Sequence record: NC_048195.1
Strand: one strand, 5' to 3'
DNA length: 64,000 nt
Origin: Escherichia phage vB_EcoM_WFC
The translations under genes and the position numbers were made by a program. Shown here piece after piece: positions 48,263 through 53,990 of this stretch; position 1 is the stretch's first letter, and the number at the start of each line of letters is the position of its first letter. The notes under the pieces were generated by a model. It ran no database searches, was not told where the DNA came from, and was given only the letters and a program-made list of their open reading frames with translations.

Positions 48263-48814
48263 TTATACAGTGTACGGAGTACCGTCTTGATTCAAGCGCA
48301 CGATAAACTTCAAATCAACGCCGATGATTTCACGCGTATCAAAGATCACATAGTTGTAACGACGTTGACCAGCAATGTTTGGGTTGGTGTGAGAGTCGGT
48401 CACAACTTCCTGCGCAACCTGAATGCCTTCTTCTTTAAAGAACTTGCGCCATTCAGCAAGTTCAGCGGCAGTCACGTGCATACCAAGATGGCTAACCTGA
48501 TTGTCGTGCGCATCGATGTATTCGATGTTTTCGTGAATCCAGTTGCAACCTTTTGTATAGTCAAGAATTTCAAGCTCAAGAGGCTTACCAGCGCCGCCAT
48601 CGGTGCCGTTGCCAGCCTGATAGTTGAAGCGCAAGTCAGCTTCGTTGGTGCAATCGCCGCGCTGACCCTTAAAGACATCAGCTTCAAATACGCGACCAGT
48701 AGCAACAACGTGATCATGGAACCATTCTGTCAGGCCGATTTTAGCCAGGAAATTCTGTGCGCGCTGAGCACCTGGAATTGACAGGGCGATTTGTTCAATT
48801 TTAAAATGTGGCAT
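48263..48814 (-). CDS. Hypothetical enzyme-like protein (possible VOC/glyoxalase fold)
   Basis: 183 aa; fold assignment weak. Confidence 0.4.
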   Translation of the reverse strand: MPHFKIEQIALSIPGAQRAQNFLAKIGLTEWFHDHVVATGRVFEADVFKGQRGDCTNEADLRFNYQAGNGTDGGAGKPLELEILDYTKGCNWIHENIEYIDAHDNQVSHLGMHVTAAELAEWRKFFKEEGIQVAQEVVTDSHTNPNIAGQRRYNYVIFDTREIIGVDLKFIVRLNQDGTPYTV

Positions 48815-51349: not shown

Positions 51350-51796
51350 TTAACGGTAGTTAACTAGTTGCTGATCACCAGAGAAGGTGCAATGATAAAC
51401 GAATTGTGCGTTATAAAGCAACTGAAAACTTTTCTTTGGTTCATTATTAGAACTCATTGATGTAAAGATTTCTGCACCAGAACGGTTTTCACCAATAAGG
51501 TTGATAAAGCCGCCAGTTGAACGAGGTTGGACGAAAGTGAAACGTTGCATCCACGGAGTGCGGTTGGCACCTTTCCCTGTGAATCCCTGAATCTGAATAT
51601 TCAGACCTTCTTGCTCGTTCACACCGATGTAAGTGGTAATTGTTGCGCCAGTCGTCGCTGCAGTCTTGCCGTCCATCGCTTCGCAATCGTAAACAGCGAT
51701 TGAATCGGAAGTACGGACAGCGGCTTCAGTCGCTTCCATATACATGGTTCCGAGAATAGCAGTTGCGGCAAGCGCGATTCCAGTGATGCGTTTCAT
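51350..51796 (-). CDS. Small secreted protein with signal peptide (function unknown)
   Basis: 148 aa; MKRITGIALAATAILG... signal-like N-terminus; two Cys. Confidence 0.5.
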   Translation of the reverse strand: MKRITGIALAATAILGTMYMEATEAAVRTSDSIAVYDCEAMDGKTAATTGATITTYIGVNEQEGLNIQIQGFTGKGANRTPWMQRFTFVQPRSTGGFINLIGENRSGAEIFTSMSSNNEPKKSFQLLYNAQFVYHCTFSGDQQLVNYR

Positions 51797-51861: not shown

Positions 51862-52857
51862 TTATTTATTAGCAATATAAGCAAATTTTTGATAGTTATT
51901 TGCTTTGATGAGTTTTTCAACTTCAGCAAGGTCATGGGCGACGTCATCAAGCAAAATGTTTCGCCAAGTAGCGAATCGACCGACACTAAATACGTTCAAA
52001 TCCATGGTCAGTTGCAGGAGTAGGGCGTGTCGTAAGTCTTTCGGAATGTCGACAATCTTGCCATACTTCTGGTCAACCTTTTCAACTTCTTCAAGAGCGA
52101 TGTCACTCCATGAGAGGCCAAAAGCCGTCAATACTTCGTCAACTTCTGCACGCAACTTAATGTCACGGTAACGAGTAATGCCGCCAGCGGCTTCAACTGC
52201 GGCTTCACTTACGCTAACCAAAGGAATTGTTTCAATGATCAGCGTGTCACCAGTGATTGATGCGCGGTAAGTTCTGACGGAGTAGTCAGGAAAGTAAATG
52301 GTTTGATACAGTTCACACTTGCGTTTAATCTTAAAGCGGTAAACACGAATGTTTGCCTTATCGAATGAGAAATCAATCTTTTGATCAATCCCAGCAAGCT
52401 TCATCATGACTGGCAGCGGCGATGTGTTGATGATTGGCGTCTCGCTATAGCCGCAAAGCGTGTCGACCGGAGTATTAAAGAATATACGGTCACCCAGTTT
52501 ATCGACAAGCTGATCATAAAAGTCATCAGGCGCAATATAACGCGTTGCAGTTTTAAGCTTCATGATTGAACGGCTGCCAAACTGATTGGTGACCTTCATG
52601 GAATACATATTGGCAAGGTTGATTGGGCAATGGTCGTGATAGTAGTTACCGCGAAAATACACAGCCTTGTCAACTGTCACGGCCTTAAAAGGGATTCCGG
52701 TAATACGGCTTACTTCTTCGCCGCGAAAGCGTAGCAGTGCCTTGTGCTGTGGCGCTCGCTCCCCTGCTTCGTACACAATAGAGTTCGGGAAGTGACACGC
52801 GGTAATAAGTCCTGCCAAACCGCCGCCGATAATCATTACAGGTTGTTTCATGTTCAT
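51862..52857 (-). CDS. FAD/NAD(P)-binding oxidoreductase
   Basis: 331 aa; N-terminal Rossmann dinucleotide motif VMIIGGGLAGL. Confidence 0.6.
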   Translation of the reverse strand: MNMKQPVMIIGGGLAGLITACHFPNSIVYEAGERAPQHKALLRFRGEEVSRITGIPFKAVTVDKAVYFRGNYYHDHCPINLANMYSMKVTNQFGSRSIMKLKTATRYIAPDDFYDQLVDKLGDRIFFNTPVDTLCGYSETPIINTSPLPVMMKLAGIDQKIDFSFDKANIRVYRFKIKRKCELYQTIYFPDYSVRTYRASITGDTLIIETIPLVSVSEAAVEAAGGITRYRDIKLRAEVDEVLTAFGLSWSDIALEEVEKVDQKYGKIVDIPKDLRHALLLQLTMDLNVFSVGRFATWRNILLDDVAHDLAEVEKLIKANNYQKFAYIANK

Positions 52858-52930: not shown

Positions 52931-52963
52931 CAGACGAAAAAAGACCCACAACAAGTGTGGGTC
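52931..52963 (-). terminator. Rho-independent terminator (minus strand)
   Basis: GACCCACA/TGTGGGTC hairpin followed on minus strand by TTTTTTCG. Confidence 0.55.
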
Positions 52964-52991: not shown

Positions 52992-53837
52992 TTATTCCGC
53001 TTGATCACCGTCTTCAGCATCGTCGTTGGATTCAACATCGACAAACTCGATGTGGCCCATCTCTTCCAGCTTGCTCAGGTAGGAGCGAACGGAAGCGCCA
53101 AACAGTTGATCTTTAACTTTTTCGCCCAGCTCATCGATAGACTGTGCCACACCAACTTCGCCTTCTTTGATCGCCGCCAGAACGCGTCCACGGGTGGAAT
53201 GCTCTTGCGGCTGGCTCAGGCCATTGCCAGTGTAGATGAAGTGAGTGGCTTTTGCACGACGCTGACCGTTTGCCTTTTTAGCAGCCTTACGTTCTGCGAT
53301 GGCTTTGCGACGTTCTTCAGCTTCTTTCTTACGCTGTTCTTTCTGCTGTTCTGCAGCTTCTTTCGCCGCAATCTTAGCAGCTTCACGCTCTGCCTTGCGT
53401 TTCGCTTTAGCTTCTTCTTTGGCCTTCTCTTTTTCGGCCTTCGCTGCAGCACGGGCTTGATCACGCTCTGCTTTCTTGGCCGCAGCCTGCTCAGCTTTCA
53501 GGCGCTTGGCTTCTTCTTTAGCCTTTGCCTTTTCGATTTCTTTTGCTGCTTTAGCGGCTTCACGCTCTGCTTTCTTAGCAGCAGCCTTTTCTGCACGCTC
53601 TTTAGCTTTCTTAGCTGCTTCTTCAGCACGCTTCTGAGCCTTCTCATCAGCAGCCTGCTTGCGTTTCAGCGCAGCTTCTTCACGCTTGGCTTGTTTTTCC
53701 TGCTCACGCTTCTGGCGTTTTTCTTCGGCTTCTTTCTTTTTAGCCAGGCGTTTTTCTTCAGCCACGCGACGACGTTCTGCTGCGGCTGCTTGTTTTTCTT
53801 CTTTAGATAATACTTTGATTGCTTCGGCCATATTCAC
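52992..53837 (-). CDS. Lys/Ala/Glu-rich low-complexity coiled-coil protein with globular C-terminal domain
   Basis: 281 aa; about 200 aa of KAEEKR-type charged repeats then about 80-aa non-repetitive C-terminus. Confidence 0.55.
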   Translation of the reverse strand: MNMAEAIKVLSKEEKQAAAAERRRVAEEKRLAKKKEAEEKRQKREQEKQAKREEAALKRKQAADEKAQKRAEEAAKKAKERAEKAAAKKAEREAAKAAKEIEKAKAKEEAKRLKAEQAAAKKAERDQARAAAKAEKEKAKEEAKAKRKAEREAAKIAAKEAAEQQKEQRKKEAEERRKAIAERKAAKKANGQRRAKATHFIYTGNGLSQPQEHSTRGRVLAAIKEGEVGVAQSIDELGEKVKDQLFGASVRSYLSKLEEMGHIEFVDVESNDDAEDGDQAE

Positions 53838-53990
53838 AGTCCTTAAATAAATTAGTTTATTTTATATTCCCCGTTTGGGATAACTTAATTATGCCTTCAG
53901 TCGCCGCCAGTAGCAACTAAAAACTATGGCGGCAATGCCACTTTAATTAAACTGATTTTCAGTTTTATTTTTCGTAAATTTACGTCAACA

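What the first reader, a model, noticed from the sequence alone, without database searches (positions are those of the whole stretch)
52992..53837. Extreme Lys/Ala/Glu-rich repeat protein with a small globular C-terminal domain
About 200 residues of near-pure KAEEKR charged repeats (histone H1 / TolA-like low complexity) precede a roughly 80-aa ordered domain. The gene has its own terminator hairpin and lies between the Dda helicase and the enzyme cluster. Such a protein could act as a nucleoid-binding, DNA-condensing or host-takeover factor.
Basis: seen in the sequence. Interest (0 to 1): 0.45.

Follow-up and report, generated by a model that had tools for sequence, protein, structure and literature searches.

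The report
Virion-carried charged-rod winged-helix phage protein
This gene of an E. coli phage (genus Wifcevirus) makes a protein found in purified virus particles, built from a 26-nm helix with one basic and one acidic face plus a small winged-helix domain; its job is unknown, and riding in and out of the capsid with the DNA is the best guess.

Summary
The window is 99.8% identical to Escherichia phage vB_Eco4M-7. The ORF (minus strand, ATG at 53831, stop 52992-52994, 279 aa) is vB_Eco4M-7_83, annotated "TolA protein" or "hypothetical".

- **TolA and histone H1:** the resemblance is compositional only. There are no Pfam or NCBIfam hits.
- **Predicted structure (AlphaFold2):** one continuous helix (residues 10-186, about 26.5 nm), a basic arm (RRAKATH), a winged-helix domain (197-264) and an acidic tail.
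- **The rod:** 16 uninterrupted 11-residue repeats. K/R lie on one face and D/E on the opposite face. This pattern holds in 20 of 21 relatives whose rods cannot be aligned.
- **Selection:** strong purifying selection (pN/pS 0-0.03 in the rod).
- **Synteny:** the gene always sits just downstream of the Dda-like helicase, across five host genera.
- **Virion association:** published proteomics finds it in CsCl-purified virions (422 spectra, comparable to the portal). The Pbunavirus orthologue is annotated structural, yet is absent from DNA-emptied ghost particles.

Best reading (confidence 0.4): a DNA-associated internal virion protein released with the genome. The host-takeover or nucleoid-condenser idea is not supported. 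Function is untested. This is a new variant of a known kind, of moderate interest.

The parts
52992..53831 (-). Coding sequence, 279 aa plus stop (= vB_Eco4M-7_83 / Bas99_0053; PHROG 4765)
   Evidence: ORF. ATG start and Shine-Dalgarno. Identical annotation. PHROG 4765 at E 2.4e-84. Peptides including the exact C-terminus were seen by MS. pN/pS 0-0.12.
53805..53831 (-). N-terminal cap, residues 1-9 (MAEAIKVLS), predicted disordered
   Evidence: pLDDT below 50 for residues 1-9. Many relatives carry a His-rich N-terminus here instead.
53274..53804 (-). Rod: residues 10-186, one continuous alpha-helix of about 26.5 nm made of 16 uninterrupted 11-residue repeats, with a basic face and an opposite acidic face
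   Evidence: AF2 helix 10-186, pLDDT up to 98. K/R at repeat positions 1, 4, 8, 11 and D/E at 3, 6, 9, 10, with faces 180 degrees apart on an 11/3 wheel. No 3.5-residue hydrophobic periodicity. The pattern is conserved in relatives.
53244..53273 (-). Basic arm / linker, residues 187-196 (ANGQRRAKAT), containing the conserved G-x-R-R-x-K-A-T-H motif
   Evidence: R192 is invariant; R191, T196 and H197 are nearly invariant. Non-helical in the model.
53040..53243 (-). Winged-helix domain, residues 197-264 (b1-H1-b2-H2-H3-b3)
52995..53039 (-). Acidic C-terminal tail, residues 265-279 (DVESNDDAEDGDQAE)
   Evidence: Composition. Low pLDDT. Acidic tails of variable length occur in most relatives. The tail is intact in virions: peptide LEEMGHIEFVDVESNDDAEDGDQAE with 162 PSMs.
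53840..53844 (-). Shine-Dalgarno AAGGA, 8 nt upstream of the ATG
   Evidence: Read from the sequence.
53888..53916 (-). Sigma-70-like promoter candidate (TTGCTA - 17 nt - CATAAT) in the 159-nt gap after the helicase gene
   Evidence: Consensus scan only. Not experimentally supported.
52937..52963 (-). Intrinsic terminator: GACCCACA-CTTGT-TGTGGGTC followed by T6
   Evidence: The equivalent sites are annotated as terminators in WFH, LBL3 and KTN6.

Best explanation
The gene encodes a conserved, abundantly made protein of PB1-like myoviruses (Wifcevirus, Pbunavirus and relatives) that ends up in the virus particle.

It is a rod with a knob. A roughly 26.5-nm single alpha-helix is built from 16 eleven-residue repeats, with a continuous Lys/Arg face and an opposite Glu/Asp face. 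A basic arm, a small winged-helix domain and a disordered acidic tail follow.

My proposal:
- The protein sits inside the head, in tens of copies at most, and is not icosahedrally ordered.
- It is held on the packaged DNA by the basic arm, the winged helix and the basic face of the rod.
- It leaves the capsid together with the DNA. A 1-nm-wide helix plus a ~3-nm knob could pass down a tail tube.
- It can therefore act on the incoming genome before any phage gene is expressed. Possible roles are protecting or organising the DNA, or recruiting partners such as the adjacent helicase through the acidic tail.

Shown: expression, conservation, predicted fold, charge geometry and presence in purified virions. 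Inferred: DNA binding, internal location, co-ejection and any early function.
For: **Virion association**
- CsCl-purified vB_Eco4M-7 virions gave 7 peptides, 25.8% coverage and the 6th highest score of 33 proteins.
- That is 422 PSMs and area 3.1e9, against 559 PSMs and 2.0e9 for the portal.
- Only 32.6% of the sequence yields tryptic peptides of 7-35 aa, so most of the observable sequence was seen.
- The protein was also detected in phage ECML-117.
- In the Pbunavirus LBL3 record, the orthologue ORF66 is the only 'putative structural protein' outside the structural module within the first 50 kb of the 64-kb record. Several other Pbunavirus records carry the same annotation.

**Release with the DNA**
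- In Pbunavirus SCUT-S1, proteomics was run on ghost particles after LiCl DNA release, DNase treatment and pelleting.
- The orthologue S1_069 is absent from the 31 proteins found, although it offers ten detectable tryptic peptides.
- Its low-abundance neighbours ORF70 and ORF72 were detected in the same sample.

**DNA-binding potential**
- A conserved basic arm GxRRxKATH precedes the domain. R249 and K254 on helix 3 are invariant.
- The K/R stripe keeps a single 11/3 register along the whole rod in 20 of 21 relatives.

**Other support**
- It is not resolved in the text of the Pbunavirus cryo-EM atlases, which describe 19 (E217) and 21 (Pa193) built chains. That fits a flexible internal component.
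- It is a real, constrained gene: no indels and pN/pS 0-0.12 within the genus.
Against: - The ghost-particle absence is negative evidence from a different phage and laboratory.
- The vB_Eco4M-7 virion list also contains clearly non-structural proteins (a DNA helicase, a glyoxalase-like protein), so carry-over does occur.
- The gene lies in the replication module behind a sigma-70-like promoter candidate, not among late structural genes.
- The route into the prohead is unknown. Peptides from residues 11-20 indicate there is no large N-terminal processing of the T4 internal-protein type.
- The estimated abundance is only portal-like, too low for bulk DNA condensation.
Confidence: 0.4

Rival explanations
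1. It is an intracellular replication-module factor. The winged helix and acidic tail bind DNA or replisome proteins, for example the Dda-like helicase encoded immediately upstream. Its presence in virion preparations is incidental carry-over of an abundant, sticky protein.
For: - The gene is invariably the next gene after the SF1 Dda/RecD-like helicase in Escherichia, Salmonella, Aeromonas and Pseudomonas phages and in two distant metagenomic phages. This holds even where the downstream enzyme genes differ.
- It has a sigma-70-like promoter candidate.
- Acidic C-terminal tails recruit partners in phage SSBs such as T7 gp2.5 and T4 gp32 (my own knowledge).
- Helicases also appear at low level in virion proteomes.
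Against: - Its signal in CsCl-purified virions is several hundred-fold above the co-detected helicase (score 1198 against 2.2) and comparable to the portal.
- High-salt CsCl banding should strip electrostatic hitch-hikers.
- Independent Pbunavirus annotation singles it out as structural, while the helicase and polymerase are not so marked.
- Synteny alone may simply reflect a conserved ancestral module.
Confidence: 0.25
2. It is a structural or assembly component that does not bind DNA. One possibility is an internal strut, ruler or scaffold-like rod, with the winged helix docking on the portal, capsid wall or core. The oppositely charged faces of the helices could then let them stack side by side.
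For: - It is present in virions.
- Basic and acidic faces 170-228 degrees apart are conserved in relatives and would allow lateral charge-zipper packing.
- Scaffolding proteins are typically elongated, helical and charged with a small C-terminal helical coat-binding domain; the Pa193 paper cites P22 and phi29 for this.
- The winged-helix core is acidic and resembles protein-binding winged helices.
- The rod length is exactly conserved within the genus.
Against: - It is not seen in the text of the E217 or Pa193 cryo-EM atlases, where a different protein (gp24) is proposed as the scaffold.
- It is absent from SCUT-S1 ghost particles, which retain true structural proteins.
- Rod length varies from 88 to 263 residues across the family, which is poor for a ruler of a conserved capsid.
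- The gene is not in the morphogenesis module.
Confidence: 0.15
3. It is a histone-H1-like or TolA-like basic protein that condenses DNA or the host nucleoid and serves host takeover.
For: - The window protein is very basic (rod net +25, pI 9.6) and Lys/Ala-rich.
- A winged-helix domain combined with a Lys/Ala-rich extension recalls linker histones.
- Weak, non-significant hits to the nucleoid-associated protein YejK/NA37 appeared in two searches.
Against: - There is no Linker_histone or TolA match.
- There is no membrane anchor.
- In most relatives the rod is a near-neutral polyampholyte, so high positive charge is not the conserved feature.
- The extension is a folded helix with 20% Glu, not a disordered polycation.
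- The YejK hits have E 0.45 and 0.008 before correction for 28 queries.
- Nothing links it to the host nucleoid.
Confidence: 0.07
4. It is an ejected conduit or pilot protein. About ten or more copies would assemble into a helical tube or periplasm-spanning bundle with the Lys/Arg stripe lining a DNA path. This would be analogous to the phiX174 H protein.
For: - phiX174 H is a virion-borne DNA pilot protein. Its hendecad and heptad helices form a 170-A decameric tube lined with amide and guanidinium groups.
- Here, 16 hendecads place K/R at the positions that would face a core or lumen.
- Abundance is roughly portal-like.
- The 26.5-nm rod is about the width of the cell envelope (my own knowledge).
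- The E217 authors raise the possibility of undiscovered ejection proteins in these myoviruses.
Against: - There is no hydrophobic seam for helix-helix packing. Ala shows no consistent phase, and only 7 aliphatic residues occur in 183.
- AF2 sees a lone helix.
- A contractile tail tube already crosses the envelope.
- A lumen lined by four Lys/Arg per 11 residues would grip DNA tightly.
Confidence: 0.05

Closest known systems
Pbunavirus (PB1-like) ORF66 / 14-1 gp67 / KTN6_066 / S1_069 'putative structural protein' (PHROG 4765)
   Same: Orthologous. The C-terminal domain is about 54% identical. The architecture is the same (hendecad rod, GxRRxKATH arm, winged helix, acidic tail). The position after the Dda-like helicase and the flanking terminator are the same.
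   Different: The rod sequence is not alignable and is close to neutral in Pseudomonas phages, against +25 here. The acidic tail is longer in Pbunavirus. No member has a tested function.
Packaged internal or ejected phage proteins (T4 internal proteins IPI-III and Alt, P1 Dar proteins, P22 ejection proteins)
   Same: It is a non-morphogenetic protein found in purified virions, encoded away from the head and tail genes, not part of the ordered shell, and apparently lost when the DNA is released.
   Different: There is no sequence or fold relationship. There is no evidence for a cleaved capsid-targeting peptide. Internal location and ejection are not shown. The rod-plus-winged-helix architecture has no counterpart among those proteins (my own knowledge).
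Winged-helix (wHTH) fold superfamily
   Different: No sequence-level match to any Pfam winged-helix family. An extra N-terminal strand is present. The core is acidic. Foldseek against the PDB gave nothing at E<0.001. The ligand (DNA or protein) is unknown.
TolA (domain II)
   Same: A Lys/Ala/Glu-rich, long helical segment. This is the source of the 'TolA protein' label in several GenBank records.
   Different: No N-terminal membrane anchor, no TolA C-terminal domain, and no match to TolA models in Pfam or NCBIfam. The resemblance is compositional.
phiX174 DNA pilot protein H
   Same: A virion-borne protein with long helices that include 11-residue (11/3) repeats, with polar or basic residues at the inward-facing positions, present at about ten copies.
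   Different: H has hydrophobic helix-helix contacts, mostly heptads, Gln/Asn/Arg rather than Lys, and no winged helix. It serves a tailless ssDNA phage. No oligomer is predicted here.
Charged single alpha-helix (ER/K SAH) domains and 11-mer amphipathic repeats (group-3 LEA proteins, apolipoproteins, alpha-synuclein)
   Same: High E/K/R content and no hydrophobic heptads. It is predicted as one long isolated helix. The 11/3 periodicity matches the 11-mer repeat families.
   Different: Classical SAHs rely on i/i+4 Glu-Lys pairs on one face. Here the basic and acidic residues are segregated to opposite faces, and Ala is 31%. No LEA or apolipoprotein Pfam match. The comparison with those families rests on my own knowledge.

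Membership tests
TolA | N-terminal transmembrane anchor (domain I) | tested here: not met
   The N-terminus MAEAIKVLSKEEK is polar, and there is no hydrophobic stretch anywhere in residues 1-195.
TolA | C-terminal TolA domain III, or a full-length TolA model match | tested here: not met
   No Pfam or NCBIfam family at E<=1 / 0.1. The C-terminal domain is a winged helix.
TolA | Long Lys/Ala/Glu-rich helical domain II | tested here: met
   Composition and predicted helix 10-186. This is compositional resemblance only.
Linker histone H1/H5 | Globular winged-helix domain matching the Linker_histone family | tested here: not met
   No Pfam hit. The only H1 structure listed (1uss) has probability 0.09 and TM 0.25.
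Linker histone H1/H5 | Disordered, strongly basic Lys/Ala/Pro-rich tail | tested here: not met
   The extension is N-terminal, predicted helical, Pro-free and 20% Glu. It is near neutral in most relatives.
Winged-helix fold | Three-helix bundle with beta-strand wing topology | tested here: met
Winged-helix DNA-binding proteins | Binds DNA through helix 3 and the wing | not testable with these tools
   Indirect only: invariant R249 and K254 on helix 3 and a conserved basic arm. The acidic core and protein-binding structural neighbours argue the other way.
PHROG 4765 / Pbunavirus ORF66 family | Full-length profile match and conserved synteny | tested here: met
   E 2.4e-84 over residues 1-279. 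tblastn hits in 355 phage records. The gene follows the helicase in all loci inspected.
Phage internal / ejected virion proteins | Present in purified virions | tested here: met
   Published MS of CsCl-banded particles, including supplementary peptide tables. Pbunavirus annotation agrees. This is literature evidence, not a new experiment.
Phage internal / ejected virion proteins | Located inside the capsid and released with the DNA | tested here: inconclusive
   The orthologue is absent from DNA-emptied SCUT-S1 ghosts despite having detectable peptides. This is cross-phage, negative evidence only.
Phage internal / ejected virion proteins | N-terminal capsid-targeting sequence removed by the prohead protease (T4 type) | tested here: inconclusive
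   Peptides from residues 11-20 and 14-20 were seen in virions, so there is no large N-terminal removal. The peptide confidences were low to moderate.
Canonical (heptad) coiled coil | 3.5-residue periodicity of hydrophobic residues | tested here: not met
   Power at period 3.5 is 0.04, against a shuffle maximum of about 1.2. There are only 7 aliphatic residues in 183.
Charged single alpha-helix (SAH) | Long helix rich in E/K/R without a hydrophobic seam | tested here: met
Charged single alpha-helix (SAH) | Monomeric, stable helix in solution | not testable with these tools
   Needs CD, AUC or SAXS. Opposite-face charge segregation differs from classical SAH patterns.
Scaffolding protein | Encoded beside the major capsid gene and (usually) absent from mature virions | tested here: not met
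   It is encoded in the replication module and is present in mature virions.

The most novel reading that the evidence does not exclude
The protein is a genome escort. Roughly ten to a few tens of copies would ride on the packaged DNA. Each would thread through the tail tube as a 1-nm rod with a ~3-nm knob and enter the cell with the DNA. There it would shield or organise the incoming genome.

[quoted passage not shown] It might also contribute to their unusually fast infection cycle.

A more exotic variant is a phiX174-H-like, Lys/Arg-lined conduit.
Probability: 0.12. Interest if true: 0.75.

Novelty: new variant of a known kind. Interest (0 to 1): 0.5.

Why it matters
Pbunaviruses are among the Pseudomonas phages most used for therapy, according to the BASEL paper. 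The same paper cites a report of exceptionally fast Wifcevirus replication (3-5 min) and finds these phages unexplainedly insensitive to most restriction systems.

A conserved, abundant virion protein that the published cryo-EM atlases do not appear to account for, and that no one has characterised, is an obvious gap in the parts list of these phages.

If it is delivered with the DNA, it would be a new type of co-injected protein. It would also be a candidate for the missing genome-protection or early-infection function.

Independently of function, the rod is an unusually clean natural example of a long helix with segregated basic and acidic faces. It runs 16 hendecads without a phase break and is conserved only as a pattern.

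Tried and rejected
**Family and database searches**
- TolA and linker-histone membership: no Pfam, NCBIfam or PDB sequence hits for the whole protein, the C-terminal domain or the rod.
- Anti-defence or defence families: no PADLOC hit. The Pbunavirus anti-defence island is gp80-88, not this gene.
- Weak hits to nucleoid protein YejK/NA37 (E 0.45 in PDB; 0.008 for 1 of 28 queries in Pfam) are not significant after multiple testing.
- The word-indexed homologue searches returned almost nothing new. The exhaustive search gave 29 representatives, none annotated.

**Sequence features**
- DNA tandem repeats: only a 15-bp x2 match.
- Heptad coiled coil: no 3.5-residue periodicity.
- A T4-like late promoter: TATAAAATA occurs upstream, but only 2 matches in 64 kb against 0.7 expected, and the longer motif is unique.

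**Structure searches**
- Foldseek against the PDB gave no hit at E<0.001.
- BFVD returned only family members.
- The afdb50 library was unavailable.

**Literature I could not reach**
- Ceyssens et al. 2009, the source of the 'structural' annotation.
- The Pa193 LC-MS tables.
- The 14-1 transcription start and terminator tables.

The Pbunavirus virion evidence therefore rests on GenBank annotations plus my recollection that they derive from mass spectrometry.
Full report
**Origin and gene model**

The window is a Wifcevirus genome. A 3.5-kb stretch around the finding is 99.8% identical to Escherichia phage vB_Eco4M-7 and 95-98% identical to 25 other E. coli/Shigella phages.

The ORF lies on the minus strand. 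The ORF listing start is a GTG at 53837. However, an ATG at 53831 has AAGGA 8 nt upstream and gives the 279-aa product annotated in GenBank. The deposited product name is 'hypothetical protein' or 'TolA protein'.

An 8-bp GC-rich hairpin followed by T6 lies 29 nt after the stop codon. The equivalent site is annotated as a terminator in three related genomes. A sigma-70-like hexamer pair sits in the 159-nt gap after the helicase gene. That is a consensus match only.

**Checking the observation**

- Residues 13-195 are 95% A/K/E/R/Q, with one Gly, no Pro and 7 aliphatic residues.
- There is no DNA-level tandem repeat.
- The gene is clearly functional. Four Wifcevirus genomes differing at 3-12% of synonymous sites show no indels. 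There are 0-1 non-synonymous changes in the rod (pN/pS 0-0.03) and 0-2 in the C-terminal part.

**Architecture**

I aligned the C-terminal ~100 residues of 28 family members. AlphaFold2 on that alignment gave a confident model, with mean pLDDT 88 and a core near 96. Its order is strand, helix 1, strand, helix 2, helix 3, strand.

- RiPP recognition elements
- RPA32C
- BlaI/MecI, Fur/PerR, ArsR and CRP/Vfr regulators
- ScpB and Scc1-C
- T4 MotA-N and PBP2

Foldseek found nothing significant in the PDB. In BFVD it found only family members. The fold assignment is therefore solid at superfamily level, but it does not say whether the ligand is DNA or protein.

The full-length model has these parts:

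| Residues | Feature |
|---|---|
| 10-186 | one unbroken helix, about 26.5 nm |
| 187-196 | linker |
| 197-264 | winged-helix domain |
| 265-279 | disordered acidic tail |

Invariant residues are R192 in a G-x-R-R-x-K-A-T-H arm, Q209, S212, R214, G227, and R249 and K254 on helix 3.

**The rod is the unexpected part**

- Hydrophobic residues show no 3.5-residue periodicity. Lys/Arg show a sharp 3.7-residue periodicity.
- The same K/R peak (3.65-3.70) exceeds the 95th percentile of shuffles in all 16 relatives tested, although their rods cannot be aligned.
- K/R autocorrelation peaks at lags 4, 7, 11, 15, 18, 22 and 26 in 16 of 16 relatives. This is the signature of 11-residue (hendecad, 11/3) repeats.
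- Laid out in rows of 11, residues 10-186 form 16 repeats without a single phase shift.
- K/R occupy positions 1, 4, 8 and 11, with no acidic residue at 4, 8 or 11. D/E occupy positions 3, 6, 9 and 10.
- On an 11/3 helical wheel the basic and acidic resultants are 180 degrees apart. Ala is evenly spread.
- A single-register basic face is present in 20 of 21 relatives. The D/E direction lies 170-228 degrees from it in all 21, though D/E clustering exceeds shuffles in only about half.
- Net charge is not conserved: +25 here and about -8 to +13 elsewhere. Length also varies, from 88 to 263 residues.

What selection keeps is a straight helix with one basic and one acidic face. It does not keep a polycation or a fixed length.

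**Family and context**

- PHROG 4765, of unknown function, matches end to end.
- tblastn with the C-terminal domain finds 355 phage records. These are mostly Pbunavirus (PB1-like) phages of Pseudomonas at about 54% identity. Serratia, Burkholderia, Xanthomonas, Pantoea, Salmonella and Aeromonas phages also appear.
- An exhaustive search of 1.8 billion representative proteins found only 29 clusters, all with the domain at the C-terminus.
- In every locus inspected, the gene directly follows the Dda/RecD-like SF1 helicase in the replication module. This includes two distant metagenomic phages lacking the ThyX cluster.

**Protein-level evidence from the literature**

Necel et al. 2020 analysed CsCl-banded virions.
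- vB_Eco4M-7_83 gave 7 peptides, 25.8% coverage and the sixth-highest score of 33 proteins.
- Their supplementary table lists 422 spectra and area 3.1e9, against 559 spectra and 2.0e9 for the portal.
- It includes the exact C-terminal peptide (162 spectra) and low-confidence peptides from residues 11-20.
- Only 32.6% of the sequence can yield tryptic peptides of 7-35 residues, so most of what could be seen was seen.
- ECML-117 gave two peptides.

In the Pbunavirus LBL3 record, ORF66 is the only 'putative structural protein' outside the structural module within the first 50 kb of the 64-kb record. Helicase and polymerase are not so labelled. I recall that this annotation derives from virion mass spectrometry in Ceyssens et al. 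2009, which I could not open.

In Pbunavirus SCUT-S1, by contrast, proteomics was done on ghost particles after LiCl-induced DNA release, DNase treatment and pelleting.
- The orthologue S1_069 is missing from the 31 proteins found.
- It offers ten good tryptic peptides.
- Its low-abundance neighbours ORF70 and ORF72 were detected.

The text of the cryo-EM atlases of E217 (19 gene products) and Pa193 (21 chains) does not mention it.

**Interpretation**

The most economical reading is a flexible, non-icosahedral virion protein that is associated with the DNA and leaves with it. The basic arm, the winged helix and the basic face of the rod are the candidate DNA contacts. The slender rod and small knob are compatible with passage through a tail tube. 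I put this at 0.4.

Weaknesses:
- There is no direct DNA-binding evidence, and the winged-helix core is acidic.
- The ghost-particle result is negative evidence from another phage.
- The virion list also contains contaminants.
- The gene is in the replication module.
- The route into the prohead is unknown.

Rivals:
- A replisome or helicase partner whose virion presence is carry-over (0.25). Its strength is the invariant helicase linkage and the acidic tail.
- A non-DNA-binding internal strut or assembly factor using charge-zipper stacking (0.15).
- A phiX174-H-like conduit (0.05). H is a virion-borne protein with hendecads forming a 170-A DNA tube, but the rod here lacks any hydrophobic seam.

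**What is known and what is new**

The gene is annotated and its product has been seen by mass spectrometry, so its existence is not new. I found no functional study. The Pbunavirus anti-defence island is elsewhere, at gp80-88, and the literature searches returned nothing on this protein.

As far as I could find, the following have not been described:
- the winged-helix assignment
- the 16-hendecad two-faced rod and its family-wide conservation
- the rejection of the TolA label
- the contrast between full virions and ghost particles

[quoted passage not shown] A co-delivered DNA-bound protein is a testable candidate for that, though I rate it at only about 0.12.

Noticed in passing
window 53001..53810 (+): A 269-aa ORF runs antisense to the gene and is Phe/Leu/Ser/Cys-rich. 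It is a mirror artefact: the reverse complements of GCN, AAR, GAR and CGN codons contain no stop codons. It is not a gene.
   Followed up: partly
window 48263..48814 (-): This 183-aa product equals vB_Eco4M-7_77, 'glyoxalase family protein'. It is encoded next to the polymerase exonuclease gene. It is also strongly detected in CsCl-purified virions (8 peptides, 49.7% coverage, score 718). It may be a second non-morphogenetic virion passenger.
   Followed up: no
window 51862..52857 (-): This 331-aa neighbour has an N-terminal IIGGGLAG dinucleotide-binding motif but no Pfam match. It is labelled UDP-galactopyranose mutase in the vB_Eco4M-7 supplement. It follows the finding in Wifcevirus, Pbunavirus, Salmonella and Aeromonas relatives, but not in the two distant metagenomic phages.
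   Followed up: partly
window 51350..51796 (-): This 148-aa ORF has a signal-peptide-like N-terminus (MKRITGIALAATAILGTMYMEA) inside the nucleotide-metabolism cluster. It has no Pfam match.
   Followed up: no
relatives P0006, P0014, P0015, P0018, P0019, P0020 (first 25 residues): Six of 23 family members start with a His-rich segment, for example MSHGHHNHGVSDAGHSHN or MHKHHNHDHN. The Wifcevirus and Pbunavirus proteins do not. This could be a metal-binding or anchoring head at the far end of the rod.
   Followed up: partly
L013 3161..5359: In one distant metagenomic relative the upstream Dda-like helicase is 732 aa. It carries a faint LAGLIDADG hit, suggesting an intein or homing-endonuclease insertion.
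   Followed up: no
protein P0001 (E. coli assembly, contig 1127 bp): A 147-aa fragment 100% identical to the C-terminal half is deposited as an E. coli 'hypothetical protein, partial'. This is most likely phage DNA in a bacterial assembly.
   Followed up: no
window 53929..53941 (-): A weak terminator-like hairpin (5-bp stem) lies just after the helicase stop and before the candidate promoter of the finding. If real, it would make the gene a monocistronic unit bracketed by terminators.
   Followed up: no
whole window (literature): Wifcevirus phages are reported to be insensitive to all tested RM systems except EcoP1_I, with no known protection mechanism. A cited study reports 3-5 min from adsorption to progeny release. 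The ThyX, kinase, reductase and unknown-enzyme cluster next to the finding could alternatively point to DNA modification.
   Followed up: no
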